From: a virus
Lineage: Duplodnaviria > Heunggongvirae > Uroviricota > Caudoviricetes
Strand: one strand, 5' to 3'
DNA: 61,747 nt
IMG/VR virus record: IMGVR_UViG_3300021400_000113
Coordinates: 104,932-166,678 of that record
This document shows, in pieces, positions 42,957 to 61,747 of the stretch. The stretch's first letter is position 1, and each line of letters starts with the position of its first letter. Made by a program: the position numbers and the translations under genes. The notes below the pieces were generated by a model that searched no databases, had not been told where the DNA came from, and saw nothing but the letters and a program-made list of their open reading frames with translations.

Positions 42957-44522
42957 TTAACCTGCGGCCGCGATATTGGCCTGGGTCTTTTCAGATTTTT
43001 GTTCATCAGGAAGTTCTGGACGTCCTCCTGTATTATTTATGTTGCCACTTGACTACCCACTATTACTTTTTTGCGCGGATGAGCTAGTTTTTTCTTCTCC
43101 CGCTACTACATTTCCAGAAGTAGTATATGAAGATTGTAGTGGTATCATCTTTTCTGACATCTTTAAGAAATCATTTTCAAAATCCATTAAACTTAATTGA
43201 CTCATTTGCTTAATTCCCATAGCCACACCCGCAAACATTTTAGAATATCCATATTGCGCGCCACGGAAATAAGCAGTTTGTAAATCTTGTCTGTTAAAAG
43301 CAGTTGTCGGTAAAATTTCAAAATCAAATGTTAATCCCTTGCGCGAAAAAATATTATTTAAATGATATTTAATCCATGTTTCATATACATTTAAATAACC
43401 CGTCATTAAACTTTCATCTTTTTTAATCATATAAGCCAATGAGGAACTCCCATCTGGATTAAATAATATATTACCTCGTCCTAGGGCATCCCAAGCATTT
43501 TTACGATACTTTTCAATACGGTCAGCAGACTAAGAAGCCGCGCTTGTTTCTTGTAAACTCTCTAATTCAGTATCACCAAATGTAGTTAATACATCAACTG
43601 TGTCTATATCTCCTAACATACTAGCAACACTAGCATGCATTTCTGCCGCTTCATCTAGCTAGAATACAAGTTCACCATCTTTATCTACTGGTAACTATTG
43701 AATTAATAATTTATATAATTCATTTTCATCACGCTTTTCCTCGCGACCAATAGCATCATCTAATTTTTTTAAGGCTGGAATACTAGCAATTAAAAGTGGA
43801 GTCTAATCATTTGGAAAACAGAAACAAATGCCTCCTCCGCCCGCACCAATCATTACCCAGGGATCTGTCTTTTTCTTTGAACGAATCCATTCTATCCAAG
43901 CGCGTCTTACATCTTCTGGAAAAGAATTGATTACTTCTTCGCGCACAGCAGAATCAGTAAAACGTTCAAAATATAGAAGATTAAGTTCAAGTATATTTAA
44001 ATTATTAAAATCCTTAAAGCGTGTACGACAAAACTCTACTGGTAAGTCTTGAATGACGGGCTTATTATTTTCTATTCTCAGTATACCATAATAAATACCA
44101 TTTTTAAGCCATTCAGTAGTAATATTAGCAAAAGTATTTGGGACATCTAATTTATCAACAAAATCGCAAGCATTATAAAATGCCTTTATAATTTGTGTCT
44201 TCGATCCTTTGCCTCCTTCAAAATTAGGAATTATAACAGTATCATAAAGTGGCAGATGCGCGAGAAAATCAATATTACTTCTATACTCACTATTGGTTCT
44301 ATAAAAATATTTAGATAATGCACGTAAAGCAACTATATCTCCATTACGAATTATTTCATAAATTTCTTCTAATGTAAAATCACGAGCTACTGGATCACGA
44401 GAACTTATACGCCATCCTCTATAATCATAACTACGGTCGGAGAGAGGCGCACGAGGAATTGATGCTACCTTTCTTTTAAATGTGACAAAATCATAAGGCT
44501 ATCTTTTTTTATTTTCTTCCAC
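42957..44522 (-). CDS. portal protein (521 aa, TAG-recoded)
   Basis: GTG start after GGGGTG; follows the terminase; acidic C-terminal tail ...PLQSSYT..GGRPELPDEQKSEKT. Confidence 0.78.
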
Positions 44523-44527
44523 TTAAC

Positions 44528-46315
44528 TCACCCCCTTTTTCTTGGAGTAAAAAATGTATACTAAGAAAAATCACGTTTGTTCTTTTTCTTTAAAGCTAAA
44601 TCTTCATAATATTTTACACGATATAGTCCATATTCAAGCGCAGAAAAACGGTCCTTTTCTAATGAATGAGAAATGCGTTCAACTTTAAATTGATTCTAAA
44701 TTCCAGTTGGTTTTAGCCGCAAGTTATTTAATTCGTCCATTAAACGAGAAGTCATTTCATATGGCATTAAATAAATACGTCTATCAATTGGAGTCATTTT
44801 TTGACCGCGCTTTGTCTATAATAGTCTATCCCTTACAATACGTTCGTGTGCTAAGAAAGAGACAGAGCCATTATTTATCTAGGTAAAAAAATTGGAATTG
44901 ATTGCGTCATCATTAGATGAGCCCGCTTTTATATCATATATAATTGCGTTATATTCAGGCCAAGGAGCTTCTCCCTCATTTTTCTTTTCAGGAGGTAAAT
45001 GATGGTCGTTATTAAATGCGTAATATGAAGGAAATTGTTCTCCTGTTTTTGCATCAAAAGAAGGAACAACCATGGCATCTAATAATCCAATACCAGGGCC
45101 GTTGCCGTCAATAACAATTTCTTTTGGATTATATAATTGTATTAGCTTTTTTAAACGAGGGGCTTGTTCGGTTATATAGTTAGCTCCATGAATAACTTCT
45201 GTATAAACAATATTTTTTCTAAACCCATTATCATTAGGAATAACTTTAATAACTATTACAGCGGTATTAGCAGAATATCTAGCTACGTCAACCCCTATCA
45301 CATAAAATGTCTTCGGATTAGCAGGATTCTACTATGCTTTCCGCTCACATTTTAATAAAGTTCTTCTTTTATTTAATCTTCTTGAATCTAACCAAGCATC
45401 TTTATTATTTCCAGTCCAAATAGATAAAGATTCACGCGCAAAACTCTCTTCATTCATTGTAGAGGAATTACGCTGATCTTCCATCATTTTCTTATTTATA
45501 ATACCATAATATAATGGAACTTCATATGAAAGGCCCCATACAAAATAATCTTCTGGATGGAGAATAGCATTAATAGTACATTCAATAAGTTTACCATACA
45601 TAAATACAATACGTTCGCGCGCGGTTGTTATGAAGGTTTGAGTTGATACGGGTTCTTCTGGATTTAAGGTTCCGTCAACTTCGCGGCGAGGTACGTTCAT
45701 TTGAGGCAATAAAACTTCATTATAGTCTTCTTCTTCAATTGTCGCAGCTTCTTCTAAAATGCCCGCAGTCGCGCGAAGACCACGACTTGTATCTTTTGAT
45801 ACAACTGTTATACTGCTACCATTTTTAAAATGTAATTCATAATAGTTGCCACTTTTCTTTTGTCCAGTCTTTCCATCGTCTTGCTAAGTTGTAAGTTCAC
45901 GACGCAAAATAGGCCAATGCTTGAAAAATTCTTCAAACTTGGCTTCTGCGGTTTTAATAACCGTGCCCTTAATATCTGAAGCAATAAATATGTTAGAGTT
46001 AGGTAGTAGAATTGCTTTTACCAACGCGCTTAAATAAGCGGTAAATGATTTTGATGTCGCGCGCGTGGCCGTCCAAAAATGATAACGATAACGCATACTT
46101 GCGCGCAGCGCTATGCGTTGAAAAGGCTATAAATGCCAATGTTTAGCATCTTCTGTATCTTGAAGTGTATCTAACATTAAGTCTGGATAAAGTATCCATA
46201 AATTTAAATATTTTGTAAAAAGTTCTTGATTCGCATCTAAAAAGTCCTTTGTTAAAACTACGCCTTTCTCAATAGGGATACCATCACGTAGTACGACTTC
46301 CTAATAATCATTCAT
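44528..46315 (-). CDS. terminase large subunit (595 aa, TAG-recoded)
   Basis: H L*PFQ, Walker A-like TATRATSKS, SRGLRATAGILEEAA (Walker B), nuclease IGVDVAR, C-terminal KDRFSALEYG. Confidence 0.88.
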
Positions 46316-47255
46316 CGTACCCTCCCCCTTGTAATTCAACCGCGAGCTCATCTTCATCTTCATATTCAACATCAGCGGTTTCATCAAACTCAACTTTTTC
46401 GTTTTCAATTTGTTCAAGGCGTTCAGTCATATTATATTGGTCGCGCTTTGATTCAACCTATTCCGCAAAATTACCCTCATTAATAACAAGGCGCTTTAAA
46501 TAATTTTGAATATTCTCCATCATAAAGTCAATAGAATCTTGCGGTTCAGTATGCCATTTTGGATGCCACCCTTTCTTGCCATAATAGACCATAAGCTCTC
46601 CAATAGATTCAAAATCTGCCGCGTTTTTCGCATTGGAGGCTTCAAAGTGTGCCATTTTAATAATATTGTCACGGGCGTCCATTAATTTTTTAACATCCTA
46701 TCCACTACGCAGTCCATTCTTAATTTGTAATTCTGTTTCGCATAGATCGCGCGCGTAATGCTTTAAAATTGGCGTTGATACATTCTATGTGGCTACAATT
46801 GCATTATAAAAATCTTCCAAAAATAAAAGCTCTTCTTTTGTATAGGTTGGCGCCCATTCCTTTTTAAGCCGCCGCAATTTAGCCTCATTTAAAACTTCAA
46901 TTTCCTCATCAATTATGCCTTCTTCGCGCGCGAGGCGCCAACGTTCATTTTCATCGGCCCATTGAAGCGCGGCATAATGGTCATCAAATAATAGGTTAAA
47001 GTAGGCCGATAATGTATGCTCTTTATGTGTCTTATAAAGCGATGTCCATTTATTTAGGTCAAATGGAATGTCTAAGTAACGACAAAGTCTATCAACTTCT
47101 CCTAAATTTTCCTAATCAATCATGCGTTCAAGGCACTAAGTGCAAATAAGAGAACGATGGCCGGGAAAGAAGTTAGATGGAGTTCGCGCGAATTGAATTT
47201 CAGGCTTTTCCTCCTTGCATTTCAGACATTTGCGTTTCTTTACTTCTTCTGTCAT
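46308..47255 (-). CDS. hypothetical protein with N-terminal Zn finger, possible terminase small subunit (315 aa, TAG-recoded)
   Basis: CLKC..CT*C; overlaps the terminase start; role inferred from position only. Confidence 0.65.
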
Positions 47256-48561: not shown

Positions 48562-48591
48562 ATTATAACATATTGAATAACTGGGTGTCAA
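48562..48591 (-). promoter_or_regulatory. leftward promoter heading the morphogenesis module
   Basis: Minus strand TTGACA-17 bp-TATAAT (TGTTATAAT). Confidence 0.75.
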
Positions 48592-48794
48592 GTATTTGGG
48601 GGATAGTTCAAAATTTTTCGGGTGAGAGATGATTGGGACGGGGCCTATTGTTCGGATTTGTCGTTTTTGGTTTTCCCGTATACATGCCCCCGGTACTGGC
48701 GTCCTATTTTTGTGCAGGTCGTACAGAAAAGCGCTGGCTTTTTGTGCACTATGCCGAACCTTCAAATTTTCCCGCGAAAAAGCGAAAAAAGGGC

Positions 48795-48822
48795 TTGCAA
48801 TTCCCGCGGGGTGTGGTATAAT
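48795..48822 (+). promoter_or_regulatory. rightward promoter for the 48917 gene
   Basis: TTGCAA-16 bp-TATAAT with extended TG; no palindrome upstream. Confidence 0.6.
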
Positions 48823-48916
48823 ACAGATGTTCCCGGGAGGACGGGCAGCCAGCGACGATATGAGCGGGCCGATACCTGCGGGATACACCATAACTATATT
48901 ATAGGAGGGATTCACC

Positions 48917-49510
48917 ATGTTGAAATCTAAGGAAAAGGGCTATTGTCAAAAGACTCTGACCGAGCTGGAGCTTGCAATGGAAGCACGTTATGAGCTGGAG
49001 CGTGAAAAGGGCTCGACCGCTGAACGTTTCGACGTTTCCGCGAAAGGCATCGAGGTGCGGGTGCGCCACCATGTTCAGACCCGCGGCATCTCCAGCAAAG
49101 CCGATTTTCGCGCAAGAGCGGAAGGAAAAGCTGACGGTTACCTGTTCATCAATGGCAAGCGTTACGCCTATGATGTAAAGACAGGTGGCACGGTCGGGAA
49201 GCCCCAGCAGGATGGGAGCTGGGATGAAAGCGACATCCTGCCGTCCGCTCCATACGTCATCTTTCCTATCATTGACATCATCAAAACGGATGACGACATC
49301 CTTGATGAAAGCGTGATTTTCACGCGGAAGCAGTGGCTGGAGCTGTGCGCCAACTGTTCACGGAAAGGACTGGCTGGCACCTTCCACGTGACCGGAAGGT
49401 CTCCCGTGATTGCCTTCCAGCCGACCCCGTTGAATAAGCTCCGCCGCATGGTAGAGGAAATGCTTAACAACGGCGATGGCTGGGTCCTGCGTGACTATGA
49501 AGCCACCTAA
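48917..49510 (+). CDS. hypothetical protein with a PD-(D/E)xK-like motif
   Basis: AGGAGG RBS; ADGYLFINGKRYAYDVKTG; GC-rich codons. Confidence 0.6.
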   Translation: MLKSKEKGYCQKTLTELELAMEARYELEREKGSTAERFDVSAKGIEVRVRHHVQTRGISSKADFRARAEGKADGYLFINGKRYAYDVKTGGTVGKPQQDGSWDESDILPSAPYVIFPIIDIIKTDDDILDESVIFTRKQWLELCANCSRKGLAGTFHVTGRSPVIAFQPTPLNKLRRMVEEMLNNGDGWVLRDYEAT

Positions 49511-49956: not shown

Positions 49957-50038
49957 TTATATGTCAGGCATCTAAACTTAGATGCATGGCATCTAAATTT
50001 AGATGTTGAACATCTAAATTTAGATGTTGGACATCTAA
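49957..50038. repeat. four tandem copies (21-bp period) of the 19-bp palindrome
   Basis: TTATATGTCAGGCATCTAA, TTAGATGCATGGCATCTAA, TTAGATGTTGAACATCTAA, TTAGATGTTGGACATCTAA separated by 2 bp. Confidence 0.9.
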
Positions 50039-50119
50039 ATAATCCCCTTGACAGCATAAATGCTATGTGCTATAATGGTACCATCAAGAAGGGATAGAAT
50101 CCCAAGAGGAGGTATTTCC

Positions 50120-50383
50120 ATGTCTACTATCACCGCTCGTGACTTCGCGCGTCCCGTCGTCGTCCTGCCCAACCGTAAAGCCGTTATTCGTGCGCTGGCA
50201 GCTGGGCGTACTGTATGGTGCGCTGAAACTGGTGAAGGCTGGCAGCTGGGAGAGGGCTGGGATCGGGCCTCTCTTAGCTTTACCTTTCCCGGTTCTTCTT
50301 TGAACCGCGCTCGGCACCTTGCCAGTCATATCTTTGCCGAAGAAGAGCGAAAAAATTTCTTCTTCGGGAGCGGCGTAAAATAA
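50120..50383 (+). CDS. cassette ORF, hypothetical (87 aa)
   Basis: Own palindrome and promoter; GAGGAGG RBS. Confidence 0.7.
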   Translation: MSTITARDFARPVVVLPNRKAVIRALAAGRTVWCAETGEGWQLGEGWDRASLSFTFPGSSLNRARHLASHIFAEEERKNFFFGSGVK

Positions 50384-50483
50384 TACGCCCTTCATAACTT
50401 AGATGTCAAACATCTAAATTCCATTATTGACAACTTAAATTTTTCATGTTATAATTAGGTATCAAATGAAGGAGGAAGGAACC

Positions 50484-50735
50484 ATGAACGTCTATTCCAA
50501 GTATTGCCACATCGAAATGAACATGCGCAAGGGACAGGTTTACAGCGCGCGGATGTACACCGCGATTGAAACGAAAGCAGGCGAAAAAGAGTACTGGAAA
50601 ACACTGACAGCAGCTGAAGCTGGACGCGCGATGCGCAAGCTGCAGAAAGCGACAGGCATTAAGCCAACAATCGGATACAACATGTTTGATGCAAGCCTTA
50701 CCAATAAAGAGATTATCTATTACTGGGAGAAATAA
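50484..50735 (+). CDS. cassette ORF, hypothetical (83 aa)
   Basis: Own palindrome and promoter; stop codon in hairpin. Confidence 0.7.
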   Translation: MNVYSKYCHIEMNMRKGQVYSARMYTAIETKAGEKEYWKTLTAAEAGRAMRKLQKATGIKPTIGYNMFDASLTNKEIIYYWEK

Positions 50736-50836
50736 TTCTCCCTTCAGTATTTAGATGTTCAACATCTAAATAATACTATTGCTTTTTTTAATAATCTATG
50801 TTATAATAGACCCATCAAAGAAAGGGAGGCAAGACA

Positions 50837-51148
50837 ATGATTAAAGTAATCGAACAGGTTATGAACCTTAAAGAATCCGAAGGGCTTACCATTAAAAACT
50901 ATCAGTCTATCAATTATAAATCCGGATGGCAAGTAGCCGATTATGGTGTGAAATGTTATAACATACAAGAAGCAATTATTACAATTGCAAAATATAAAGG
51001 TACTTGCGGCGTATGGTTGGAAAATGGTATATACTATATTGACCATAGTTTCCGCGTGAATACCAAAAAAGAAGCACTTGCAATCGGACGCGTAAATAAC
51101 CAAATTTCAATTTTGAAATGGAAAAATAAATCTTTGGTTTACTGCTAA
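50837..51148 (+). CDS. cassette ORF, hypothetical (103 aa)
   Basis: Own palindrome and promoter; GGGAGG RBS. Confidence 0.7.
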   Translation: MIKVIEQVMNLKESEGLTIKNYQSINYKSGWQVADYGVKCYNIQEAIITIAKYKGTCGVWLENGIYYIDHSFRVNTKKEALAIGRVNNQISILKWKNKSLVYC

Positions 51149-51248
51149 GCAGTAATCCCAAAACTTAGATGTTAGACATCTATATTTTAATATTGACATT
51201 TTATTAAAAATATGTTACAATTTTATTGAAAGAAAGGAGAGGAAAAAC

Positions 51249-51323
51249 ATGACAATCGTAATTATCGGATTCTGGGCGTTGATTTCCTTCTTGTATCTCC
51301 ATCACGTAATTTCAGAGCGCTAA
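51249..51323 (+). CDS. 24-aa hydrophobic micropeptide
   Basis: MTIVIIGFWALISFLYLHHVISER; own palindrome, promoter, AGGAGAGG RBS, stop in a perfect 10-bp hairpin. Confidence 0.7.
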   Translation: MTIVIIGFWALISFLYLHHVISER

Positions 51324-51429
51324 GCGCTCTGAATAATTTAGATGTTGAACATCTAAAATCTCCTATTGACAACCGCGCCTTATCATGTTATAATAAGGTA
51401 TCAAAAGAAAGAAAGGAAGGAATTTCAAA

Positions 51430-51597
51430 ATGAAACAATATTATTGGATGCATAAGGAACATGGTTATCTTGTCCCGGAATCTAACCTCTATGAAGATGC
51501 GGTTGCCATGGAGCTGGACGATATTACAGATCCTACCAGCGTTGAGTATCTCAATTTCAGTTTGTATTATCACAAAACGCACTTGTTGGTTTTATAA
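51430..51597 (+). CDS. cassette ORF, hypothetical (55 aa)
   Basis: MKQYYWMHKEHGYL...; stop in GTTGGTT-ttata-AACCAAC. Confidence 0.65.
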   Translation: MKQYYWMHKEHGYLVPESNLYEDAVAMELDDITDPTSVEYLNFSLYYHKTHLLVL

Positions 51598-51717
51598 ACC
51601 AACTTCCCGAAACTTAGATGTTTGACATCTAAATTCAACTATTGACAATTTCATTTTTATTTAGTATAATTTACTTGTAAAAAAGAACGGGAGAAGAATC
51701 CCGAAACTAAGGAGGAA

Positions 51718-51957
51718 ATGGGCATGACTATTAAGAAGGAAAAAAACTTAAAAGAATTTGAATTTTGGGGACCCGCGCAGCGAATTGCCGATCTTTTACT
51801 GAATGAAGAATTTGATGCAATCGAGCAACACCTTGAAGAGCTTTATCCGGAAGGAATTGGAGAAACAGAACTTAATGACTTGTTTGCATATTATACAGAT
51901 TTCGTTTTGGAAATTATTGGAAAAACCGAAGAAGAAATTCTCGCGCGGGATAGTTAA
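51718..51957 (+). CDS. cassette ORF, acidic hypothetical (79 aa)
   Basis: AAGGAGG RBS; FEFWGPA..TELNDLF. Confidence 0.7.
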   Translation: MGMTIKKEKNLKEFEFWGPAQRIADLLLNEEFDAIEQHLEELYPEGIGETELNDLFAYYTDFVLEIIGKTEEEILARDS

Positions 51958-52115
51958 ACCTACCCCGTACAGATTTGGGAAGAATTTTGCCTCATCATAG
52001 AATGAGGCAAAAAGGTTTTAGATGTTGAACATCTAAAATATACTATTGACATTTTTATTTCTTTCATATATAATATAATTGTTCTAAGGAACAAAAGAGT
52101 GAAGGAGAGAAAATC

Positions 52116-52334
52116 ATGAGAAAGTTTGAAGTTGGTAAAGTATATTTGCGTCCCGGTTTGTTTATTCCTTCCTTTTGGGTAAAAATCATTGAACGCACCG
52201 AAGAAACTATTACCTTTGAAGAGCTGGAATATCCCAGCAGCTCAATAGAATATTCTGTTGAACATGACGAAGCTGGAAATGAAGTCGTGAAAGCATGGGA
52301 ATACTATAATGAAATTGGATACATGAGGGCATAA
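52116..52334 (+). CDS. cassette ORF, hypothetical (72 aa)
   Basis: MRKFEVGKVY...; stop in GAGGGC-ataa-GCCCTC. Confidence 0.7.
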   Translation: MRKFEVGKVYLRPGLFIPSFWVKIIERTEETITFEELEYPSSSIEYSVEHDEAGNEVVKAWEYYNEIGYMRA

Positions 52335-52438
52335 GCCCTCTTTTTATTTTAGATGTTGAACATCTAAAATAAACTATTGACTTCAATTTCATTTTATGTT
52401 ATACTGTACACGTCAAAAGGAAGAAGGGAGGGTTGAAA

Positions 52439-52592
52439 ATGGAAACTCCACCCGGTTAGAGTAAGCCAGTCTTGTAAGGGGCTTTACAAGAGCGGCAATA
52501 TTACGCGAGCGTCCCGCCGCGTTGCAGCCTTCGGCAAGCTGGACGTATGTAATTTGGCCGAGCTGGATAAGTGCGCAATTATCCAGCTTTTT
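52439..52592 (+). ncRNA. candidate structured RNA cassette with a 12-codon mini-ORF
   Basis: Behind palindrome and promoter; ATG GAA ACT CCA CCC GGT TAG AGT AAG CCA GTC TTG TAA followed by several GC-rich hairpins and a terminator AGCTGGATAA..TTATCCAGCT-Tn. Confidence 0.4.
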
Positions 52593-52683
52593 TCTTTTAG
52601 ATGTTCAACATCTAAATCTCACTCTTGACTTTTCTCTTTCTCTATGGTATACTTATCTCAGAAAAAAGAAAGGAGTTGCTACC

Positions 52684-52989
52684 ATGGAAATGTCCCATCA
52701 CTGCCAGTATGAGCGCGCGAACCGCGTGCAGCATATCATCAACGAGATCGGTTTAGGACAAATTGTCAAAGAGAAATTCACCCACAGCTGCTATACCTGC
52801 ATCACAGATACTGGTATCACCATCATCAAAAGCGCTGACAAGCTGACAATTGTGACCATGTATGTCACCACCTATCGCGAGCTGGTAGCAGTATATGAAG
52901 GAACGAAAAAAATTCCTTCATATCTCAAAAAGAAAGTTGACCGCAATCAAACTTTTTTCACTCACGAAGGAAAAACAATTTGGGCATAA
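52684..52989 (+). CDS. cassette ORF, hypothetical (101 aa)
   Basis: AAAGGAG RBS; MEMSHHCQYERANR..; the track start at 52522 is an upstream artefact. Confidence 0.7.
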   Translation: MEMSHHCQYERANRVQHIINEIGLGQIVKEKFTHSCYTCITDTGITIIKSADKLTIVTMYVTTYRELVAVYEGTKKIPSYLKKKVDRNQTFFTHEGKTIWA

Positions 52990-53092
52990 TGCCCAAATTT
53001 ATGTTTTAGATGTTAAACATCTAAAACATAGCCTTGACTTATTAAATATTTTATGCTATAATCTTATTGTAAAAAGAAAGGGGTTGAGCAGA

Positions 53093-53308
53093 ATGTACGA
53101 AGATTTGTGCGAACAGGGCTTTGATTTTGGTTTTGTAAAATTCATGGAAGAAATGTATGGTGATGATCGCCCTTCCATGCTGATAATCAACAAAATGCAT
53201 CTGGCCTATCTCAGAGGACATAACGCCGGAATATACTTAGGTCTTAAATTCGGACGAGAAGAAGGGTATGAGAGCGGTGTAGCAGTCGCGCATCTTGGGA
53301 TTGAATAA
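53093..53308 (+). CDS. cassette ORF, hypothetical (71 aa)
   Basis: Start placed downstream of the cassette promoter. Confidence 0.6.
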   Translation: MYEDLCEQGFDFGFVKFMEEMYGDDRPSMLIINKMHLAYLRGHNAGIYLGLKFGREEGYESGVAVAHLGIE

Positions 53309-53446
53309 CGCGGGGAACCGCGTTATTTTTCTTTTAGATGTTAAACATCTAAATCTAATTCTTGACCTTTTACAAAATTCATGATATACTATTCACGTAA
53401 TCAAGGGAAGGAAAACCCACCAAACCAGAGAGGAAGATTTGAAACT

Positions 53447-53782
53447 ATGAAGAACGCTACTATCAAGACCATCTATGCTATCCTGACTGGCGAGAACACC
53501 AACGAAGCCGACAAGCTGACCTGCATCCGCGAGCTGGAAGATGAGTTTGCTAAGGCCGCAGAAAAGGCGTCTGCGAAGCAGGATACCTACGACACGATGC
53601 GCGTCGTGGTATTGAACATTCTGAATGACAAGCCTATGACGGTCGCGGAAATCTTCACCGCGGGCGAAGGTGATTGGCCCGAAGGCACCACGAAGAACAA
53701 GATTTCTTACGGCCTGACCCACTACTGGGAAAATGAAGTCGTTAAAATTCAGGGCAAGGTAAACGAATACCGCCGGAAGTAA
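53447..53782 (+). CDS. putative winged-helix DNA-binding protein, paralog 1
   Basis: ..KPMTVAEIF..EGTTKNKISYGLTHYWENEVVKIQGKVNEY; similar to the 57845 and 61008 ORFs. Confidence 0.65.
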   Translation: MKNATIKTIYAILTGENTNEADKLTCIRELEDEFAKAAEKASAKQDTYDTMRVVVLNILNDKPMTVAEIFTAGEGDWPEGTTKNKISYGLTHYWENEVVKIQGKVNEYRRK

Positions 53783-53928
53783 TTTTTAACCGCCCTTCGG
53801 GGTGGTTTTCTTTTATTTTAGAAATTAGATGTTAAACATCTAACTTTAAAACTTGACATTTCATTCTTAAAATGATATAATTTATTTGTAAAAAAGATAG
53901 GGAATTAAATTCCCGGAAGGAGACAGAT

Positions 53929-54102
53929 ATGTACGTTTTAACCACTATGTATGATGATGGATTTACTAAGGCAGAAACTTGCAATGATATTACAGAAGTA
54001 TTTAGCGCCGCCGCGATTTACCTTCAAGACAGAGAATGCACAGGCGTTCTTTGCTTAGACCTTGAAACAAAAGAATTTATCATTGACTTCACGCGGCGTT
54101 AA
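53929..54102 (+). CDS. cassette ORF, hypothetical (57 aa)
   Basis: AAGGAG RBS; stop in GCGGCGT-ta-ATGCCGC. Confidence 0.65.
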   Translation: MYVLTTMYDDGFTKAETCNDITEVFSAAAIYLQDRECTGVLCLDLETKEFIIDFTRR

Positions 54103-54210
54103 TGCCGCGCTTATTGTTTTAGATGTTAAACATCTAAAACTTATTATTGACTTTTTTATTATAATATGTTAATATATACTCGTAAATTGAAAAAGGAAGG
54201 CGATGCCAAT

Positions 54211-54609
54211 ATGGAAATTAGATTGGCAACTATCAACGATATGGAAGAAATTAGAACCATTGACACCAATATCCCATATATTTCCTCTTTACTCTTAATG
54301 GGAGATATTCAAGCTGGACGCCTATATATTGGGGTAGAAGCTGATAAAATTGTTTCCACTTGCGCCGCTGTTCCTGAACCTTATTATAATTATACCGCGA
54401 TGAAGCGATTGTATGTTGATCCAAATTACCGTGGCAAGGGATACGCCCAGCAAATGATTGAACACATCAGCGATCAATATAATGAAGAAAAAATCGGCGC
54501 GACCCCATGGATTACTAATGGAGCAATGCGGCATACATTAGAAAAAGAAGGGTTCACGCTTGAATATATTTTCAATGAGAAATGGTGTTTTTATTCTAAG
54601 CAAGTCTAA
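54211..54609 (+). CDS. GNAT acetyltransferase
   Basis: MEIRLAT..D..; LYVDPNYRGKGYA acetyl-CoA motif; N..M..LEKEGF. Confidence 0.85.
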   Translation: MEIRLATINDMEEIRTIDTNIPYISSLLLMGDIQAGRLYIGVEADKIVSTCAAVPEPYYNYTAMKRLYVDPNYRGKGYAQQMIEHISDQYNEEKIGATPWITNGAMRHTLEKEGFTLEYIFNEKWCFYSKQV

Positions 54610-54720
54610 GGACTTGCTTTTATATTTAAATGTTAAACATCTAATTATAAATATTGACTTTTTAATACTATTATGTTAATATATAATTGTTCCAAGGGTA
54701 TAAAGAAAGGAGAGAAAAAT

Positions 54721-55167
54721 ATGAGCTTATGGGCACCACAATATCCACATTCTGAAAATTATTCTCCCGCAAAACTTGACGCGCACTTCCCTGGCTTATA
54801 CTTTTTAGGAAAGCATGAGATTTGGAATGGAAAAGATATATATATAATAAAAGTAGGAGAAGCATCTGACATAGGAAAAAGGATGAAAAGTTATTTGTCA
54901 CATTCTCCATTTTTTTGTGATGTTTGTTATGTATTTAATACAAGTAAATACAATGAAAAAACCAGAAAAGATTTTGAACTAAATTGCCATTTATATACCG
55001 GTATAAATACCCTTGCTACCGCCGCAGGTTCACAAGAATGGTTTTTTGTTACAAAAGAACAATATGAATATTTTTGTAAATGTTTTTCTGACCCCGATGC
55101 TTTTTATACAGTATGCGTAAAAGGCCGTGAAATGGCAAGGCGTAAAAGTGTAATTGCTCTTAACTAA
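54721..55167 (+). CDS. GIY-YIG-like (T5orf172-type) protein
   Basis: PGLYFL..IKVGEASDIGKRMKSY..FE...H..GSQEWF. Confidence 0.6.
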   Translation: MSLWAPQYPHSENYSPAKLDAHFPGLYFLGKHEIWNGKDIYIIKVGEASDIGKRMKSYLSHSPFFCDVCYVFNTSKYNEKTRKDFELNCHLYTGINTLATAAGSQEWFFVTKEQYEYFCKCFSDPDAFYTVCVKGREMARRKSVIALN

Positions 55168-55294
55168 TAGAGCAATTATATTTAGATGTTAAACATCTAA
55201 TAATTATAATTGACAATTTCATTTTCTTATGCTATAATCCTATTGTAAGAACGAAAGGGAAAGGAAAATCCCAAAAACCAGAAAGGAAACTAAA

Positions 55295-55483
55295 ATGGAA
55301 AATAATAAAAACAATACTCGCGGTGGCATCGGATTCTGCGGACTTCTGACGATTGCTTTTATTATCCTTAAATTGTGCAACGTCATTACATGGTCGTGGC
55401 TTTGGGTTCTGTCCCCGCTTTGGATTAGCTTTATCCTCATCGTTTTGATTCTTCTGATTACTTTGTTATGGGCAAGCCGTTAA
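55295..55483 (+). CDS. small membrane protein (62 aa)
   Basis: GGIGFCGLLTIAFIILKL..ITWSWLWVLSPLWI; two hydrophobic segments. Confidence 0.8.
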   Translation: MENNKNNTRGGIGFCGLLTIAFIILKLCNVITWSWLWVLSPLWISFILIVLILLITLLWASR

Positions 55484-55586
55484 GGCTTCCCAATCTATTT
55501 AGATGTTAAACATCTAAATTCTTCCCTTGACTTCTTCATCATTCTATGATATACTATACCCATCAAAGGAAAGGACGGGACGAACG

Positions 55587-56036
55587 ATGAAAACGATTTG
55601 GTTTGACATGGACGGCACTTTGGGCAATCTGTACGCGGTTGAAGGTTGGCTTTCTATGCTCCGCACCTATGACCCCACACCCTACGCAGAAGCTGAAGTC
55701 ATGCTGAATATGAGCCTGCTCGCGCGCTATCTAAATCGCTTGCAGGAAGCTGGATACCAGATTGGAATTATCAGCTGGCTTTCCAAGTGCCCCACCCCGG
55801 AATATGATGAAGCTGTAACCGCGGCGAAGCTGGTATGGCTGAAAAAGCACCTGCGGTCGGTAAGCTGGGACGCCATCCGCATTGTGGCCTATGGTACGCC
55901 TAAATCTTCCTTCATGAAAAATGAGGATGATATTCTGTTTGACGATGAAGCGCCGAACCGTGAAGAATGGAAGGGCGAAGCGTATGAACCTAACCAAATT
56001 TTGGAAGTTCTGAAAGGACTTTTGAAGGGTGAGTAA
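55587..56036 (+). CDS. HAD-superfamily phosphatase (5'(3')-nucleotidase-like)
   Basis: IWFDMDGTL motif I, IISWL, ILFDD motif IV. Confidence 0.8.
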   Translation: MKTIWFDMDGTLGNLYAVEGWLSMLRTYDPTPYAEAEVMLNMSLLARYLNRLQEAGYQIGIISWLSKCPTPEYDEAVTAAKLVWLKKHLRSVSWDAIRIVAYGTPKSSFMKNEDDILFDDEAPNREEWKGEAYEPNQILEVLKGLLKGE

Positions 56037-56131
56037 TCACCCTTTATTGTTTAGATGTTAAACATCTAAAATTAACTATTGACTTTTCTTTTATAATATG
56101 ATAATATACTTACGAAAGGAAGGGAAGTAAA

Positions 56132-56335
56132 ATGATTAAGGTAACAGTTGAAATCCAGTATTATCCAATCTATGAAGCATATAGTCGTGCGCGTGGTATC
56201 TTGTTCCATCTTTTTGGTGGCGGTTGGCGTAGAAGTTATACCGACAAAATCACCGGCAAAGAAATGATGGAGTATAGAGTATGGGGAAAAGACGTGGAAT
56301 TTTTACGCCTCATGTGCGCCGAATTGCCATTTTAA
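56132..56335 (+). CDS. cassette ORF, hypothetical (67 aa)
   Basis: Own promoter; stop in hairpin. Confidence 0.65.
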   Translation: MIKVTVEIQYYPIYEAYSRARGILFHLFGGGWRRSYTDKITGKEMMEYRVWGKDVEFLRLMCAELPF

Positions 56336-56461
56336 TGGCAATTTATGATTATAGATGTTAAACATCTAAAAATAAAACTTGTATTTTATTTTATTTTATG
56401 ATATAATAATCCCGTAAGAAAGAGAGAAGGAAAACTCCTAAAAACCAGAAAGGATAAAAAT

Positions 56462-56716
56462 ATGTTGTATGTAGTTATCCATCATTATTCTTTTGAAGAA
56501 GATGCAGACGCGAACGATTATCTGATTGGGGTTTTTGATACCCCGGAGGCCGCATTTCAAGCGCGAGAAGAATATTTTTCAAATTATTCAGAAATTCAAA
56601 ATGGCATTCACTCTATTTCTATTACCCCAGTAAAACTTAATACATATAATGATGATCTTGAATGTAATGTCCCTTGGTTAAATTGTAATAATGAATGGGA
56701 GGAAGAGGAGATTTAA
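56462..56716 (+). CDS. cassette ORF, acidic hypothetical (84 aa)
   Basis: Own promoter; stop in an 11-bp hairpin. Confidence 0.7.
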   Translation: MLYVVIHHYSFEEDADANDYLIGVFDTPEAAFQAREEYFSNYSEIQNGIHSISITPVKLNTYNDDLECNVPWLNCNNEWEEEEI

Positions 56717-56833
56717 TCTCCTCTTTTAATTTTAGATGTTTAACATCTAAATTCAATCTTGACATTTTATTATCTTCATGATATACTATATCCATAGGTG
56801 AAGGAAAACACCACAAACCAGAAAGGCACCCGT

Positions 56834-57592
56834 ATGGCTTATATGGTATTCGATACTGAAACGACTTCTCTCGACAAGCCCTTCTGCTATGATGTAGGGT
56901 ATTCTATTTTCAATGATGAAATTGATGTACCTCTCACGCGCCGTCATTTCATCGTCGAACAAGTTTGGCACAACTTACCGCTATTTGAGAGTGCTTACTA
57001 CAAAGAAAAGCGCCCTTTATATATCGGCCTAATGCGGTCTAAAAAGGCCGTCATGGACAAATGGGGCTATATTATGCGAACAATTCGGCGTGATATTGTT
57101 CAATATGAAGTGACCGATGCTTACGCCTATAACAGCGATTTTGACGACAAAGTTTTTACTTTTAATTGTGACTGGTTCAAATGTAATAATCCTTTGGAAG
57201 ATATTCCTATTCATGACATTTGGGGCTATGCTTCCGAATTTATCACAAGCACACAAGCATATAAAGACTTCTGCGAAGAACACCAGTATTTTACAGATAG
57301 CGGAAACTATAAAGCAAGCGCCGAAATTGTATACAGATACCTTACAAAAGATAATGACTTTGAAGAAGCGCACATGGGCGCGTATGATGTGGATATTGAA
57401 AGTAAAATTTTGGAAGCTTGTGTTGGTATAGGGGCAGAATATGGTAAAGATTACAAAGTTGTAAAAATCTTACAACGTCCGCGCCTTACGCCTTACACCG
57501 TGAAAGTCAATGGAAAAATTATCCATCAAGGCGAATACGTAAAAAAATATGCGCGTGACGGATTGTATAGCTTTACAGAAATGGGAGAATAA
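56834..57592 (+). CDS. DEDD-family 3'-5' exonuclease
   Basis: MVFDTETT, AYNSDFD, EEAHMGAYDV. Confidence 0.85.
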   Translation: MAYMVFDTETTSLDKPFCYDVGYSIFNDEIDVPLTRRHFIVEQVWHNLPLFESAYYKEKRPLYIGLMRSKKAVMDKWGYIMRTIRRDIVQYEVTDAYAYNSDFDDKVFTFNCDWFKCNNPLEDIPIHDIWGYASEFITSTQAYKDFCEEHQYFTDSGNYKASAEIVYRYLTKDNDFEEAHMGAYDVDIESKILEACVGIGAEYGKDYKVVKILQRPRLTPYTVKVNGKIIHQGEYVKKYARDGLYSFTEMGE

Positions 57593-57682
57593 TCTCCCAT
57601 TTCTTTCCAATTTTTGTTTTAGATGTTAAACATCTAAATCCAATGCTTGACCTTTTCTTAAAGTTATGCTATACTATAATCG

Positions 57683-57758
57683 TTCCAAGGGAGAGAGTAG
57701 TAGAAAGTGAACTAATGGTCAGCCCATAGGGAACTGAATCGTGAAATTTCTCTTGGAA
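57683..57758 (+). ncRNA. candidate 76-nt small RNA cassette
   Basis: Follows palindrome and promoter, no ORF; ends pair (TTCCAAGGGAGA / TTTCTCTTGGAA, 12 bp with GU); internal TAGT/ACTA and TCAG-CCC..GGG-CTGA stems. Confidence 0.45.
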
Positions 57759-57844
57759 AACCTCTTGACATTAAGCACAAACTGTGCTATAATGAATACA
57801 TGAAAAGGACAAGGAAAAGTCCTAAAAACCAGAAAGGAAAGTAT

Positions 57845-58168
57845 ATGAAGAAGAACACCATGATCACCATCGCCGCTTACATCAAGAACGTTCCCGAACT
57901 CGCCACCGAATATGCCGAACTCCAAGCCGAACTGGACAAGAACGCCGAAAAGGCCCAGGCCAACCGCGATCTGTACGCCGCCGCGCATGACGTGGTAATC
58001 AACGCCCTGTCCGACAAGCCCGTGACGCTTGCAGAACTGTGGGAAACCGTAAAGAACACCGTTCCCGAAGGAATGAGCAAGAGCAAGGTACAGTATGCTC
58101 TGCGCGAACTGTGGGCCGCCGAAGTCGTTAAGATTGAAGGCAAGGTCAACGAATACAAGAGAGCGTAA
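57845..58168 (+). CDS. putative winged-helix DNA-binding protein, paralog 2
   Basis: KPVTLAELW..EGMSKSKVQYALRELWAAEVVKIEGKVNEY; own TTGACA/TATAAT promoter. Confidence 0.65.
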   Translation: MKKNTMITIAAYIKNVPELATEYAELQAELDKNAEKAQANRDLYAAAHDVVINALSDKPVTLAELWETVKNTVPEGMSKSKVQYALRELWAAEVVKIEGKVNEYKRA

Positions 58169-58304
58169 GCCCTCTTTTTTCTTAGCTTCTTTTAGATGTT
58201 TAACATCTAATTTATTCTGTTGACATTTCATTTTCAATATGATATACTTTATTCGTAAAGAAAAAGGAGAAGGAAAACTTCTAAAAACCAGAAAGGGAAT
58301 GAAA

Positions 58305-58574
58305 ATGACGATTTACAAGGTGGTTCGTGGAAGTTCTTACAATGATAATGAGGAAGAAATTTTTTTCACTTCCCGGGATAAAGCAATTGGGTATATTATC
58401 GGACGTTATGCAGAAAGCAAAGAAAAACCCCGTGGAAGAGAGAAGCGGCCCGACTGGTGGAATGGAAGTTTTTGTTATACCGCAGAAAAACTATTTAATC
58501 TTAGAAATTGGAATAAATATTATTACTTAATGAACTGCGGTTTTTTCTATATTGAAGCAATCAATGTATTATAA
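58305..58574 (+). CDS. cassette ORF, hypothetical (89 aa)
   Basis: Own palindrome and promoter; alternative ATG at 58299. Confidence 0.65.
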   Translation: MTIYKVVRGSSYNDNEEEIFFTSRDKAIGYIIGRYAESKEKPRGREKRPDWWNGSFCYTAEKLFNLRNWNKYYYLMNCGFFYIEAINVL

Positions 58575-58757
58575 GGGCATTGGCCCTTATAATATTTAGA
58601 TGTTAAACATCTAATTTCATTTTCACATAATTATACAAAATTCTGTATAAAAATTTTTTCAAATTATCCCGAAAAAATACTTGACAATTTTCTAAAATTA
58701 TGTTATACTCTATATGAAAAGTGAAGGAAAACACCAAACCAGAAAGAAGGATGAAAA

Positions 58758-59156
58758 ATGGGTAAAGAAGCAAGCCGTAATGAAATGAAAAACGAACTCC
58801 TGTCCACCATTCAGCCCATTCTGTCCGCCCAGCTAAACTCTGATGTTTTGCGCGTGGGCCCCAGCGAAATTGCCATTCCAGGTGTAGACGCAGATGGAAA
58901 TGAATTTTTCTATCTGGTAAAGATTTCCATTCCTCGTGGTTCACGGGATGGCAATGGTAGCTATGATGCTTATGACGGGTATGCCGAAGCAGAAGTATAT
59001 GAAGCAACCTTAAAAACTCGCGAAGCCGAGAAGGCCGCGAAAGAAGCAAAAAAAGCCGCCGCCGAAAAAGAAAAGGAACGCAAGCGCGAAGCAAAGAAAG
59101 TTGTAAAAGAACTAAATGAAAAGGGACTGAAAGGAATGATTAAGAGCGCGGAATAA
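58758..59156 (+). CDS. hypothetical protein with K/A/E-rich C-terminal helix (132 aa)
   Basis: Track ORF with RBS; related in layout to the 59883 ORF. Confidence 0.75.
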   Translation: MGKEASRNEMKNELLSTIQPILSAQLNSDVLRVGPSEIAIPGVDADGNEFFYLVKISIPRGSRDGNGSYDAYDGYAEAEVYEATLKTREAEKAAKEAKKAAAEKEKERKREAKKVVKELNEKGLKGMIKSAE

Positions 59157-59203
59157 CCGCGCTTTTCCTTTTTAGATGTTAAACATCTAAATATAAAAGA
59201 CCC

Positions 59204-59701
59204 TTACGGGTCAAAGGCATAATCAACAATGACGGGCTTATTATCTTTCCATCCATAGTTGTGATAGTGTAAATCGCAAGCAACGTTACAAATATATTCA
59301 AATTCATCTCCCGTAAGAGCCTTGGCAAAATCTCTATGACTTCCAATATTCTTAATGCGTGGCATAATATAGAAAGTGATATTATGAGAAACTACCGGAG
59401 TAATTTTAGCAAACAGATAAGCATAGCCGTCTTTTTCTGCCTGTGCATACTTGCGCACTTCATCCGGGCAATTTCCTGCCCAGCAATCTTCGTTATAATC
59501 ATACTTAATAACATAATCCGCCCGAATCACCGCCCAGCGGGAAACGCCATTACGAACCTGTACCCGCTCATGCTTTTTATCGCAATAATTGAACAGCGCA
59601 TCGGCCAGATCTTCGGGGTCATCCAGAAACTTTTCAATCACCGGGAAAATTTCTTCAAGGAACTTTTGAGCGCGTACAGTGTAATCAGTTTTCATTTTCA
59701 T
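59204..59701 (-). CDS. minimal protein-kinase-like protein (inverted cassette)
   Basis: NGVSRWAV (Gly-loop-like), YVIK (ATP Lys), DEVRKY (alphaC Glu), DLHYHNYG (catalytic loop), IVDY (Mg-binding); own leftward promoter at 59726-59754. Confidence 0.7.
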   Translation of the reverse strand: MKMKTDYTVRAQKFLEEIFPVIEKFLDDPEDLADALFNYCDKKHERVQVRNGVSRWAVIRADYVIKYDYNEDCWAGNCPDEVRKYAQAEKDGYAYLFAKITPVVSHNITFYIMPRIKNIGSHRDFAKALTGDEFEYICNVACDLHYHNYGWKDNKPVIVDYAFDP

Positions 59702-59882
59702 GACCCCTTTCTTTATTACGGTTACATTATAACATAAGATAACCGAAAAAGCAACCCCTTATTTTTAGATGTTAAACATCTAAAATCAATAGTTGACTTT
59801 TTCTTAAATCCATGATATACTTATACCGTAATCAAGAGAAGGAAAACTCTTAAAAACCAGAAGGGAAGTATGAATTATGCCT

Positions 59883-60206
59883 ATGAACGCCACCGAAATG
59901 AAGAACGCCGCCCGCAACGCCACTATTTCTGCCATGCGTGATGCTCTGGAAGACCAGTCCGCTGTCCAGTTCGCGGATGCCTCCTGGGCTATTCTCCAGA
60001 ACATTGAAGGTCAGGAAATCTGGTGCGAAGTAACCATTAAGACCAAGGCTTACAAGCCTACCAAGACCGCCGAAGCCTTCGATCCCTTTGAGGCCGCGGA
60101 AGCGTGGAAGGAAGAAAAGCGCATCAAGGCCGAAGAAAAGGCCGCGAAGGAAGCGGAAAAGGCCAAGAAAGTGGCCAAGGCAAAGGAAAAGAAGGAGGAG
60201 GAGTAA
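59883..60206 (+). CDS. hypothetical protein with K/A/E-rich C-terminal helix
   Basis: High-GC codons; alternative start at 59877; stop in GGAGGAG-taa-TCCTCTCC. Confidence 0.75.
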   Translation: MNATEMKNAARNATISAMRDALEDQSAVQFADASWAILQNIEGQEIWCEVTIKTKAYKPTKTAEAFDPFEAAEAWKEEKRIKAEEKAAKEAEKAKKVAKAKEKKEEE

Positions 60207-60308
60207 TCCTCTCCTTTTTACTTAGATGTTTAACATCTAAAATATAATATTGACATTTCTTTTATTCTATGTTATACTCTATACATCAAAAGAAAGGAAG
60301 TGCTAAGT

Positions 60309-60608
60309 ATGGTCGGATACTCTAATGGAACCATTCCCTTCAATCATGGTCAACTATGCCAGATGCTTCGCTCCGCAAATGATGAAGAACTGGCTAATAT
60401 TCTCAATGATGTTAGCAAGGAGCAGGAACGGCGCAAGGCGGCAAAGAAAAACGAATATCTCAATAATATCCGCAAGGCTATTTCTGAAGCGATTAAAGCG
60501 GGATATAGTGTTGACTTCTATTACAATTCCGATTCCGAAGGTTCCGCCTTCTCCATTCACAGCAACAATGAATTTGTTTATGATATTGAATTATTCACCG
60601 ACGATTAA
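60309..60608 (+). CDS. cassette ORF, hypothetical (99 aa)
   Basis: Own palindrome and promoter; AAAGGAAG RBS. Confidence 0.65.
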   Translation: MVGYSNGTIPFNHGQLCQMLRSANDEELANILNDVSKEQERRKAAKKNEYLNNIRKAISEAIKAGYSVDFYYNSDSEGSAFSIHSNNEFVYDIELFTDD

Positions 60609-60695
60609 GTGGCTTCAGCCACTTTCCTATTTTAGATGTTTAACATCTAAATCTAAGTGTTGACTTCTTTCTAAATTTATGATATTATATAATTG

Positions 60696-60800
60696 TTCCA
60701 AGGGAGAGGAAAAGAACAGCAAGCGCTACGATTCCTTAAAGGATAGTCATTAAAATGCGCAAGCAAAAACAAACCTCACTTGCAAGTCCTTTGGGATAAT
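60696..60800 (+). ncRNA. candidate small RNA/leader sharing its 5' end with the 57683 RNA
   Basis: Begins TTCCAAGGGAGAG; can pair with TCCTTTGGGA near 60788-60797; no ORF. Confidence 0.3.
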
Positions 60801-60802
60801 TT

Positions 60803-60893
60803 GGGAAAGTAGCTCAATTGGTCAGAGCTTGATCGCGTGAAGGGATAGAGCGATTGAATGCCCTTGATGTTGGTTCGACTCCAACCTTTCCCA
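60803..60893 (+). tRNA. tRNA-like RNA with a non-canonical anticodon arm (pseudo-tRNA; no anticodon assignable)
   Basis: Acceptor GGGAAAG/CTTTCCC-A; D arm GCTC-AATTGGTCA-GAGC; T arm GTTGG-TTCGACT-CCAAC; the 40-nt central region lacks a 7-nt YUNNNRN loop. Confidence 0.7.
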
Positions 60894-61007
60894 ATCGTAA
60901 CAAAAACTTAACAAAATTTCTTCTTGACAAACTTCAAAATCCATGATATAATAAATGCGTAAATAAGAGAAGGAAAACTCTAAAAAACCAGAAAGGATTT
61001 AACCGCT

Positions 61008-61349
61008 ATGAAGAAAACCTCTTACGAAGCCATTTACAACGCTCTGACCGCCATCAACTACGACAATGCCGAAGTCATGGAAGACCTCTGCAAGGAACTG
61101 AACCGCGGCGCCGAAGCCAAGGCGAAGAAAGCGTCTGAATACGATCAGGCGAAGCCCTTCGTATTTGAAGCCCTGCGCGTGGCAGGCAAGCCCGTGACCG
61201 TTGCGGAAATCTTCGAGCATTGTGAGAACGAACTGCCCGAAGGCTTCACCAAAGCCCGCATCCAGTACGGCCTGTCCCATCAGTGGGCGGAAGAAGTCGT
61301 CAAGACCGAAGGCAAAGTTAATTCCTACCAGTTGAAGGAAGGGGCGTAA
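61008..61349 (+). CDS. putative winged-helix DNA-binding protein, paralog 3
   Basis: KPVTVAEIF..EGFTKARIQYGLSHQWAEEVVKTEGKVNSY; own TTGACA/TATAAT promoter. Confidence 0.65.
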   Translation: MKKTSYEAIYNALTAINYDNAEVMEDLCKELNRGAEAKAKKASEYDQAKPFVFEALRVAGKPVTVAEIFEHCENELPEGFTKARIQYGLSHQWAEEVVKTEGKVNSYQLKEGA

Positions 61350-61481
61350 AGCCCTTTCTTTTTTTTGTTTTACTTTTAGATGTTAAACATCTAAATCTCC
61401 TTGTTGACTCTTTTCCTATTATATGATATACTCTATACATGAAGTGAAGGAAAACACTTGAAACCAGAAAGGGAAATGCTT

Positions 61482-61747
61482 ATGCGCAAAGAATACCGCT
61501 TCATGGTCACCGACACCGAGACCGCCACCCTGCCCTTCGCCAATGAAATCGCTAATGGCGACCCCGAAAAGAAAAAGAAAATCGCCATCGCGCGGCCTCT
61601 CGTGTATGACATCGGCTGGACTATCACCAACCGCAAGGGTGAAATCCTGGACAGCAAACAATTCCTTGTAGCCGAAACTTTCGCCGTTCCCGCCGTATTT
61701 AACACCGCGTATTATGCTGAAAAGCGCCCGCGGTATCTGGAAATGCT
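61482..61747 (+). CDS. second DEDD exonuclease-like protein (3' truncated)
   Basis: MRKEYRFMVTDTETAT..LVYDIGW..F.V.E.F...AYYAEKRPRY, parallel to the 56834 ORF (FDTETT..YDVGY..AYYKEKRPLY). Confidence 0.7.
   Translation, partial: MRKEYRFMVTDTETATLPFANEIANGDPEKKKKIAIARPLVYDIGWTITNRKGEILDSKQFLVAETFAVPAVFNTAYYAEKRPRYLEM

What the first reader, a model, noticed from the sequence alone, without database searches (positions are those of the whole stretch)
59172..59800. One cassette is inverted precisely between two palindromes, and one palindrome serves two divergent promoters
Seen: the only minus-strand gene of the array (59204-59701) is bounded by palindromes at 59172 and 59765. It has the same anatomy in reverse: a leftward promoter TTGCTT(59754-59749)-17 bp-TATAAT(59731-59726) 10 bp from the 59765 dyad, and its TAA in the hairpin GACCC-GTAA-GGGTC just before the 59172 dyad. 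The 59765 dyad also has the usual 9-bp rightward promoter, while the 59172 dyad has none. Inference: the dyad works in both orientations and defines the cassette boundary, as expected if cassettes are inserted or inverted by recombination at a symmetric site.
Basis: partly seen in the sequence, partly recalled or inferred. Interest (0 to 1): 0.78.

Follow-up and report, generated by a model that had tools for sequence, protein, structure and literature searches.

The report
Two-way cassette joints in rumen phages
In a family of large rumen phages, early genes are self-contained units joined end to end at a 19-base palindrome, and units sit either way round; this backwards gene is an old, fixed product of that joining rather than a live on/off switch, and a nuclease gene that always heads the array is a testable candidate for the protein that reads the palindrome.

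Summary
The anatomy is exactly as described. The window is part of a 167-kb TAG-recoding rumen phage whose early region holds 38 dyads (TTAGATGT-NNN-ACATCTAA). The reversed gene encodes a small kinase-fold protein. It is not a live switch: all 8 close orthologues (75-99%) are reversed and the source assembly is unbranched. Family-wide, the dyad behaves as a two-way cassette joint: about 69% of neighbour changes break at it, 38 of 40 promoter-less tail-to-tail junctions keep a perfect copy, and five gene families occur cleanly reversed inside arrays. No tyrosine or serine recombinase was found. A PD-(D/E)xK nuclease gene heads 29 of 29 array starts; one nuclease clade, scattered over the phage tree, co-occurs with a variant half-site (5/6 versus 0/23 genomes), though physical linkage could explain this. 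Best reading: a PeSL-like shuffling array with a protein-read symmetric joint; that the nuclease reads it (about 50%) or cuts it (about 30%) is inferred, not shown. The scan noted palindrome-bounded early arrays before in other phages, without reversed cassettes or a partner candidate in those notes.

The parts
59172..59190 (.). 19-bp dyad at a tail-to-tail junction, between two terminators, with no promoter
   Evidence: arms 0/16 columns variable vs flanks 8/16 in 8 orthologues
59765..59783 (.). 19-bp dyad shared by two divergent promoters
59204..59701 (-). Reversed cassette gene, 165 aa, minimal protein-kinase-like fold (invariant K66, E81, D143-x-H145, N148, D160)
   Evidence: alignment; model pLDDT 91.3; all top Foldseek rows are kinases, E 3e-3 to 1e-2; atlas lead T7 0.7 kinase 0.92
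59726..59754 (-). Leftward sigma70-type promoter (TTGCTT, 17 bp, TG-TATAAT), 10 bp from the dyad
   Evidence: -10 kept in all 8 orthologues
59704..59710 (-). Ribosome-binding site of the reversed gene
   Evidence: sequence
59199..59212 (-). Terminator-like hairpin of the reversed gene with the stop codon in its loop
59142..59166 (+). Terminator-like hairpin of the upstream forward cassette
59793..59821 (+). Rightward promoter, 9 bp from the 59765 dyad
58758..59156 (+). 132-aa forward neighbour, the same in all close relatives
59877..60206 (+). 109-aa forward neighbour on the promoter side
49957..61747 (+). Early-gene cassette array: 30 dyads in the window, 8 more at genome 846-4312
49957..50038 (.). 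Four tandem dyads (21-bp period) at the head of the array; seen only in this genome
48917..49510 (+). PD-(D/E)xK nuclease-fold gene heading the array; candidate reader of the dyad
42957..46417 (-). Portal and large terminase (code 15): the array lies just beyond the packaging genes, on the other strand

Best explanation
The dyad is the joint of a phage early-gene array. Each unit runs from one dyad to the next as promoter, gene, terminator (shown). Units are gained, lost and reordered with breakpoints mostly at the dyad (shown by comparison). Because the site is symmetric a unit can be joined either way round; a reversed unit then shares one dyad with the next promoter and leaves a promoter-less dyad at its tail, which is the layout here (shown). 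This cassette was set backwards once, in the ancestor of this lineage, and stayed so (shown for 8 orthologues). The dyad is read by a sequence-specific phage protein (inferred), most likely the PD-(D/E)xK protein at 48917-49510 (inferred, about 50%). The likeliest chemistry is a break or nick at the dyad repaired by short-homology annealing with the phage's Sak4-like protein, RecJ and ligase (inferred, about 30%), with the same bound protein also setting the strength of the promoter 9 bp away.
For: Neighbour changes: 75 of 109 junction pairs are alike on the shared side and unlike directly across the dyad (identity 0.85-0.89 vs 0.60-0.66; matched background 0.56-0.57). Tail-to-tail junctions: 38 of 40 real ones hold a perfect dyad. 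Arms differ at 0.2% of sites between orthologous junctions, the adjoining 9-bp spacer at 13%. 15 clean interior reversed cassettes, 5 families, 9 assemblies, two more in L133; this gene family is forward in 11 and reversed in 9 arrays. Whole lineages carry symmetric variants (TTAGGTGT or TTGGATGT arms) and mosaic arrays hold all four left/right half-site combinations. Centre triplet is genome-typical and locally clustered (570/851 vs 516 +/- 8). Nuclease homologue within about 2 kb of 29 of 29 array starts; four homologues picked from the protein side, down to E 2e-12, all lie before the same dyad. Acidic catalytic residues invariant. The TTGGATGT half-site occurs in 5 of 6 genomes with the ExGHNGK nuclease clade and 0 of 23 others, that clade is scattered over the tree of the adjacent core gene (6 changes, 5 forced), and two more TTGGATGT genomes carried it as predicted. 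Sak4-like gene, phrog_124 E 1e-51; ligase; RecJ.
Against: No binding or cutting is shown. 24 of 109 junctions break beyond the dyad, in promoter or leader, so ordinary short-homology recombination also acts. In four of five mixed genomes the variant half-sites crowd the nuclease-proximal end, so linkage alone may give the co-variation; one genome with that nuclease clade has no variant; the TTAGGTGT variant tracks the nuclease tree less cleanly. Nuclease alleles only 20-30% alike share the same canonical dyad. The fixed 9-bp phasing (465 of 617) points to transcription control. Genome pairs are not independent, so counts and p-values are optimistic. No close pair shows one cassette in both orientations (best 69-70% amino-acid identity).
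Confidence: 0.55

Rival explanations
1. Operator first: the dyad is the site of a dimeric regulator of the early promoters (possibly the nuclease-fold protein acting without cutting); shuffling and flipping are passive by-products of Sak4-type annealing at the only sequence shared by all junctions.
For: 9-bp spacing to the -35 box in 465 of 617 cases while stop-to-dyad distance runs from 5 to 72; 8-3-8 symmetry with a free centre; one dyad phased to both divergent promoters; precedent SPBRE/MrpR (PMC10516654) and PeSLs (PMC2839356); no recombinase.
Against: Promoter-less tail-to-tail dyads stay perfect although an operator has nothing to control there; catalytic residues of the candidate protein are conserved.
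Confidence: 0.28
2. The nuclease is a free-standing homing or competition enzyme unrelated to the dyad; its alleles drag neighbouring cassettes and their dyad variants along by co-conversion, and the dyad reader is another, unidentified protein.
For: Nuclease tree is discordant with the adjacent core gene; variant half-sites fall off with distance from the gene; the gene occurs in both orientations; phage nucleases are known at exchange boundaries (PMC10448857).
Against: Present at every array start examined, never missing; pure-variant arrays carry the variant to the far end (26 of 26 dyads in G010; 28833_67).
Confidence: 0.2
3. The dyad acts by structure alone (RNA hairpin or extruded DNA cruciform) as an insulator between transcription units.
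For: Folds as a 9-10-bp hairpin (z about -5.4); 32 of 39 double variants are symmetric; the phage encodes its own gyrase.
Against: Sequence, not just pairing, is fixed across a very diverse family (818 of 925 perfect); asymmetric hybrids are common where two alleles meet; each unit already has its own GC-rich terminator.
Confidence: 0.08
4. The cassette is a live invertible switch (phase variation) driven by a site-specific recombinase.
For: Exact dyad-to-dyad boundaries; the family occurs in both orientations.
Against: Fixed in 8 of 8 orthologues; unbranched contig at about 115x in the source sample and same orientation in an independent sheep sample; no recombinase; the cassette carries its own promoter and terminator, so flipping would not switch it off.
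Confidence: 0.03

Closest known systems
PeSL cassettes of T4-type phages (Arbiol 2010 PMC2839356; Comeau 2014 PMC4122927)
   Same: Terminator plus strong sigma70 promoter at the borders of small early genes; gains and losses map to these elements; no dedicated recombinase.
   Different: Here an invariant 19-bp dyad separate from the variable terminator is the joint, it sits 9 bp from the -35 box, survives where no promoter exists, allows either orientation, and a nuclease gene always heads the array; the phage has a DnaE-type polymerase and code 15.
Integron gene-cassette arrays (own knowledge)
   Same: Array of single-gene units separated by a palindromic site, with a conserved DNA-processing gene at the head.
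   Different: No IntI or any tyrosine recombinase; site is short and fully symmetric; every unit has its own promoter and terminator; orientation is mixed.
SPbeta repeated element bound by MrpR (Kohm 2023 PMC10516654)
   Same: Repeated intergenic element in a large Bacillota phage near promoters; some relatives carry a YonG_N gene beside the array.
   Different: SPBRE is a 15-bp repressor site for lysogeny with no reported role as a cassette joint; no MrpR-like or integrase gene was detected here.
Free-standing homing endonucleases, e.g. SegB-driven amplification of anti-defence genes (PMC13096335) and HEG islands (PMC10448857)
   Same: Phage nuclease next to a zone of gene exchange, alleles moving between lineages.
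   Different: This nuclease is PD-(D/E)xK, present in every array examined, and its candidate target is repeated about 38 times in its own genome.
Invertible segments such as Hin/Gin and shufflons (own knowledge)
   Same: Segment bounded by inversely readable sites.
   Different: No recombinase and no orientation polymorphism among close relatives.

Membership tests
PeSL | Composite terminator stem-loop plus sigma70 promoter at gene borders | tested here: met
PeSL | Gene gain and loss between relatives maps to the element | tested here: met
PeSL | Occurs in a T4-type phage | tested here: not met
   DnaE-type polymerase, RecJ, Sak4, TAG recoding; full T4 core set not searched gene by gene
PeSL | Excised mini-circles | not testable with these tools
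   only contigs were available
Integron | IntI tyrosine recombinase | tested here: not met
   PF00589 absent from this genome and five complete relatives, controls positive
Integron | Long asymmetric attC site giving one orientation; mostly promoter-less cassettes | tested here: not met
   19-bp symmetric site, own promoters, both orientations; no attC covariance model was run
Invertible switch (Hin/Gin, shufflon) | Serine or tyrosine invertase | tested here: not met
Invertible switch (Hin/Gin, shufflon) | Both orientations in one population or close kin | tested here: not met
   rare variants are invisible in contigs
SPBRE/MrpR-type dispersed operator | Repeated element in fixed relation to promoters | tested here: met
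SPBRE/MrpR-type dispersed operator | Recombinase-fold repressor that binds the element | tested here: inconclusive
   no PF00589 hit, but a diverged repressor could be missed; binding not testable
PD-(D/E)xK nuclease superfamily (48917-49510) | E...D...(D/E)xK catalytic motif | tested here: met
   D73 and D/E86 in 24 of 24, K88 in 20 of 24 with ExGHNGK-type variant in the rest
PD-(D/E)xK nuclease superfamily (48917-49510) | Restriction-endonuclease fold | tested here: inconclusive
   top seven VIA rows are endonucleases but Z only 4.4-6.0, rmsd 4-8 A, 117-141 aligned; atlas features 0.90-0.93
Free-standing homing endonuclease | Optional gene, absent from some close relatives | tested here: not met
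   29 of 29 array starts
Free-standing homing endonuclease | Cuts genomes lacking it and co-converts flanks | not testable with these tools
   a distance gradient of variant half-sites is compatible

The most novel reading that the evidence does not exclude
An integrase-free, integron-like diversification system of phages: a PD-(D/E)xK endonuclease at the head of the early region cuts a symmetric site repeated between about 38 self-expressing gene cassettes, and rejoining adds, drops, reorders and flips cassettes; enzyme specificity and site sequence evolve together.
Probability: 0.3. Interest if true: 0.9.

Novelty: new variant of a known kind. Interest (0 to 1): 0.68.

Why it matters
How phages keep tens of swappable early (host-takeover, anti-defence) genes is an old question: the PeSL papers left open whether a dedicated protein targets the linker. 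Here the linker is a short defined site, its two-way use is documented across more than 30 phages, and there is one candidate protein with natural site variants to test against natural protein variants. That makes the question directly testable with one purified 197-aa protein and two oligonucleotide substrates. The single reversed cassette itself is a modest, fixed feature.

Tried and rejected
Live inversion: no supporting joint among those listed, unbranched contig (contigs only, 309 joints not shown). Tyrosine and serine recombinase searches negative. DNA-level search for one cassette in both orientations in close genomes gave only 4 distant pairs. The overlapping + strand ORF 59336-59737 has no ribosome site or family hit and is taken as a shadow. 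Correlation of half-site alleles across the two ends of a cassette: not significant. Centre triplet does not clearly follow nuclease type. Homodimer prediction of the nuclease gave no answer and is not used. Foldseek on the nuclease model gave nothing at E<=0.001. No cultured phage carries the nuclease; PADLOC no hits; dyad plus promoter occurs in species genomes only on four short MAG contigs, too weak to name a host. The different dyad of the distant L121 phage could not be followed to its array head, so whether it has the nuclease is unknown. An alignment search of two complete relatives missed nucleases later found by iteration. Literature searches found no description of this dyad or family; the library is incomplete.

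Full report
Setting. The window is the last 61.7 kb of a complete 166.7-kb phage record found in sheep, goat and cattle gut samples. It encodes a DnaE-type polymerase, RecJ, NrdD, gyrase, ligase and a Sak4-like annealing protein, and reads TAG as Gln (long-frame cover 0.88 vs 0.64). Portal and large terminase lie at 42957-46417 on the minus strand. Beyond them begins a plus-strand row of small genes with 38 copies of TTAGATGT-NNN-ACATCTAA, 30 in the window and 8 after the genome wraps. Its position suggests the early region (inference).

Observation. The 59765 dyad has a rightward promoter at 9 bp and a leftward one at 10 bp (9 bp in 6 of 8 orthologues); the 59172 dyad lies between two terminator hairpins with no promoter. 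The reversed gene is real: 21 homologues with invariant K66, E81, D143-x-H145, N148, D160, a confident model and kinase folds filling the Foldseek list at E 3e-3 to 1e-2, so a minimal protein-kinase-like protein of unknown target. It is the only reversed gene in the window, but two more reversed cassettes close the array at genome 3420-4312.

Is it a switch? No sign of it. Eight orthologous loci of 75-99% identity are all reversed next to the same 132-aa gene, as is a ninth known from gene calls. In the likely source sample one contig at about 115x spans both dyads, and an independent sheep contig has the same orientation; contigs would hide rare variants. No tyrosine or serine recombinase was found here or, for tyrosine, in five complete relatives. 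Since the unit carries its own promoter and terminator, flipping would not silence it.

What the family shows. The same dyad marks arrays in more than 30 related contigs. Cassette order and content are shuffled. For close cassette pairs whose neighbour differs, 75 of 109 junctions are alike up to the dyad and unlike just across it, 24 break further out and 10 are unclear (pairs are not independent). Fifteen interior cassettes of five families in nine assemblies are reversed with the same anatomy as here, and most arrays end in a short reversed block. This gene family is forward in 11 arrays and reversed in 9, the reversed ones in three deep lineages and three neighbourhoods. At tail-to-tail junctions, where no promoter exists, 38 of 40 hold a perfect dyad; at this one the arms are invariant while half the flanking columns vary. 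Arms change at 0.2% of sites, the adjacent spacer at 13%. So the dyad is the boundary, works both ways and is kept for a reason beyond the neighbouring promoter. Yet its distance to the -35 box is 9 bp in 465 of 617 cases, so a transcription role is also likely.

The site evolves as two half-sites. Whole lineages use TTAGGTGT or TTGGATGT arms symmetrically, and mosaic arrays contain all four left/right combinations. The 3-nt centre is free but typical of a genome and clustered along the array. This fits a protein-read site whose copies are exchanged within and between genomes (inference).

Candidate partner. The gene at 48917-49510 has a homologue just before 29 of 29 array starts that could be read, and four homologues chosen from protein searches lie before the same dyad. 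It has a conserved E-D-(D/E)xK motif, a confident model and weak but consistent structural matches to restriction and homing endonucleases and junction resolvases (Z up to 6.0). Its alleles move between lineages independently of the adjacent core gene. The TTGGATGT half-site is found in 5 of 6 genomes with the ExGHNGK clade and 0 of 23 others, and two further TTGGATGT genomes carried that clade as predicted. Against over-reading: variants crowd the end next to the gene in four genomes, so linkage may contribute; one clade member has no variant; the second variant tracks less well; very different alleles share the canonical site.

Mechanism and rivals. Most likely the dyad is a two-way joint read by a phage protein, and this cassette is an old product of joining in reverse (0.55 for the whole reading; about 0.8 for the joint and fixed-orientation part, 0.5 for the nuclease as reader, 0.3 for cutting). 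Rivals: operator with passive recombination (0.28), unrelated homing-type nuclease with linkage (0.2), structure-only insulator (0.08), live switch (0.03); the first two overlap partly with the main reading.

Comparison. It works like PeSL cassettes (PMC2839356, PMC4122927), whose authors left a dedicated protein open, and looks like an integron in layout, but it fails membership of integrons and invertible switches and is not in a T4-type phage. SPBRE/MrpR (PMC10516654) is the operator precedent; SegB and HEG islands (PMC13096335, PMC10448857) are the nuclease precedents. No paper describing this dyad was found. Earlier notes of this scan describe palindrome-bounded early arrays in other phages; they are unchecked and not used as support. 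Verdict: new variant of a known kind, interest 0.68.

Noticed in passing
whole genome; e.g. window 21157-34194 (-): TAG is read as Gln: long-frame cover rises from 0.64 to 0.88 and a 4345-aa frame appears; array genes end mostly in TAA.
   Followed up: partly
window 60802-60894: A tRNA-Ser(TGA) gene sits inside a cassette of the array, and the same unit lies at another array position in L001.
   Followed up: no
window 55252-61484, many cassettes: A conserved 5' leader motif (GAAGGAAAAC...AAACCAGAAAGG) precedes many genes, also in the distant L121 phage; possibly a translational control element and a second recombination point.
   Followed up: no
array terminators, e.g. window 59142-59166, 59199-59212: The stop codon lies in or at the loop of the terminator hairpin in most cassettes.
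   Followed up: no
L121:107-6630: A distant phage with homologues of the reversed gene uses a different boundary palindrome, TTAACA-N6-GGCCGGCC-N6-TGTTAA, in the same position.
   Followed up: partly
L138:386: A canonical parS-type palindrome lies just upstream of a distant nuclease homologue.
   Followed up: no
genome 3453-3755 (L127, -): One of the terminal reversed cassettes encodes an AbrB/MazE-like protein (PF04014, E 2.5e-13), a possible regulator; a homologue lies forward in L137.
   Followed up: no
window 58596-58709: A dyad followed by a 66-bp AT-rich insert before the promoter, conserved in relatives; similar displaced promoters follow several forward kinase cassettes.
   Followed up: no
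window 47200-48918 (-, code 15): 572-aa gene facing away from the nuclease, with a C-terminal match to phrog_5767 (annotated sigma factor) and endonuclease VII-like families; conserved beside every array.
   Followed up: partly
genome 4886-6262 (L127, -, code 15): A ResIII-type helicase gene closes the array on the far side.
   Followed up: no
window 53629-53770, 58015-58156, 61187-61328: Three paralogous cassettes of one small family within the array, present in several copies in most relatives.
   Followed up: no
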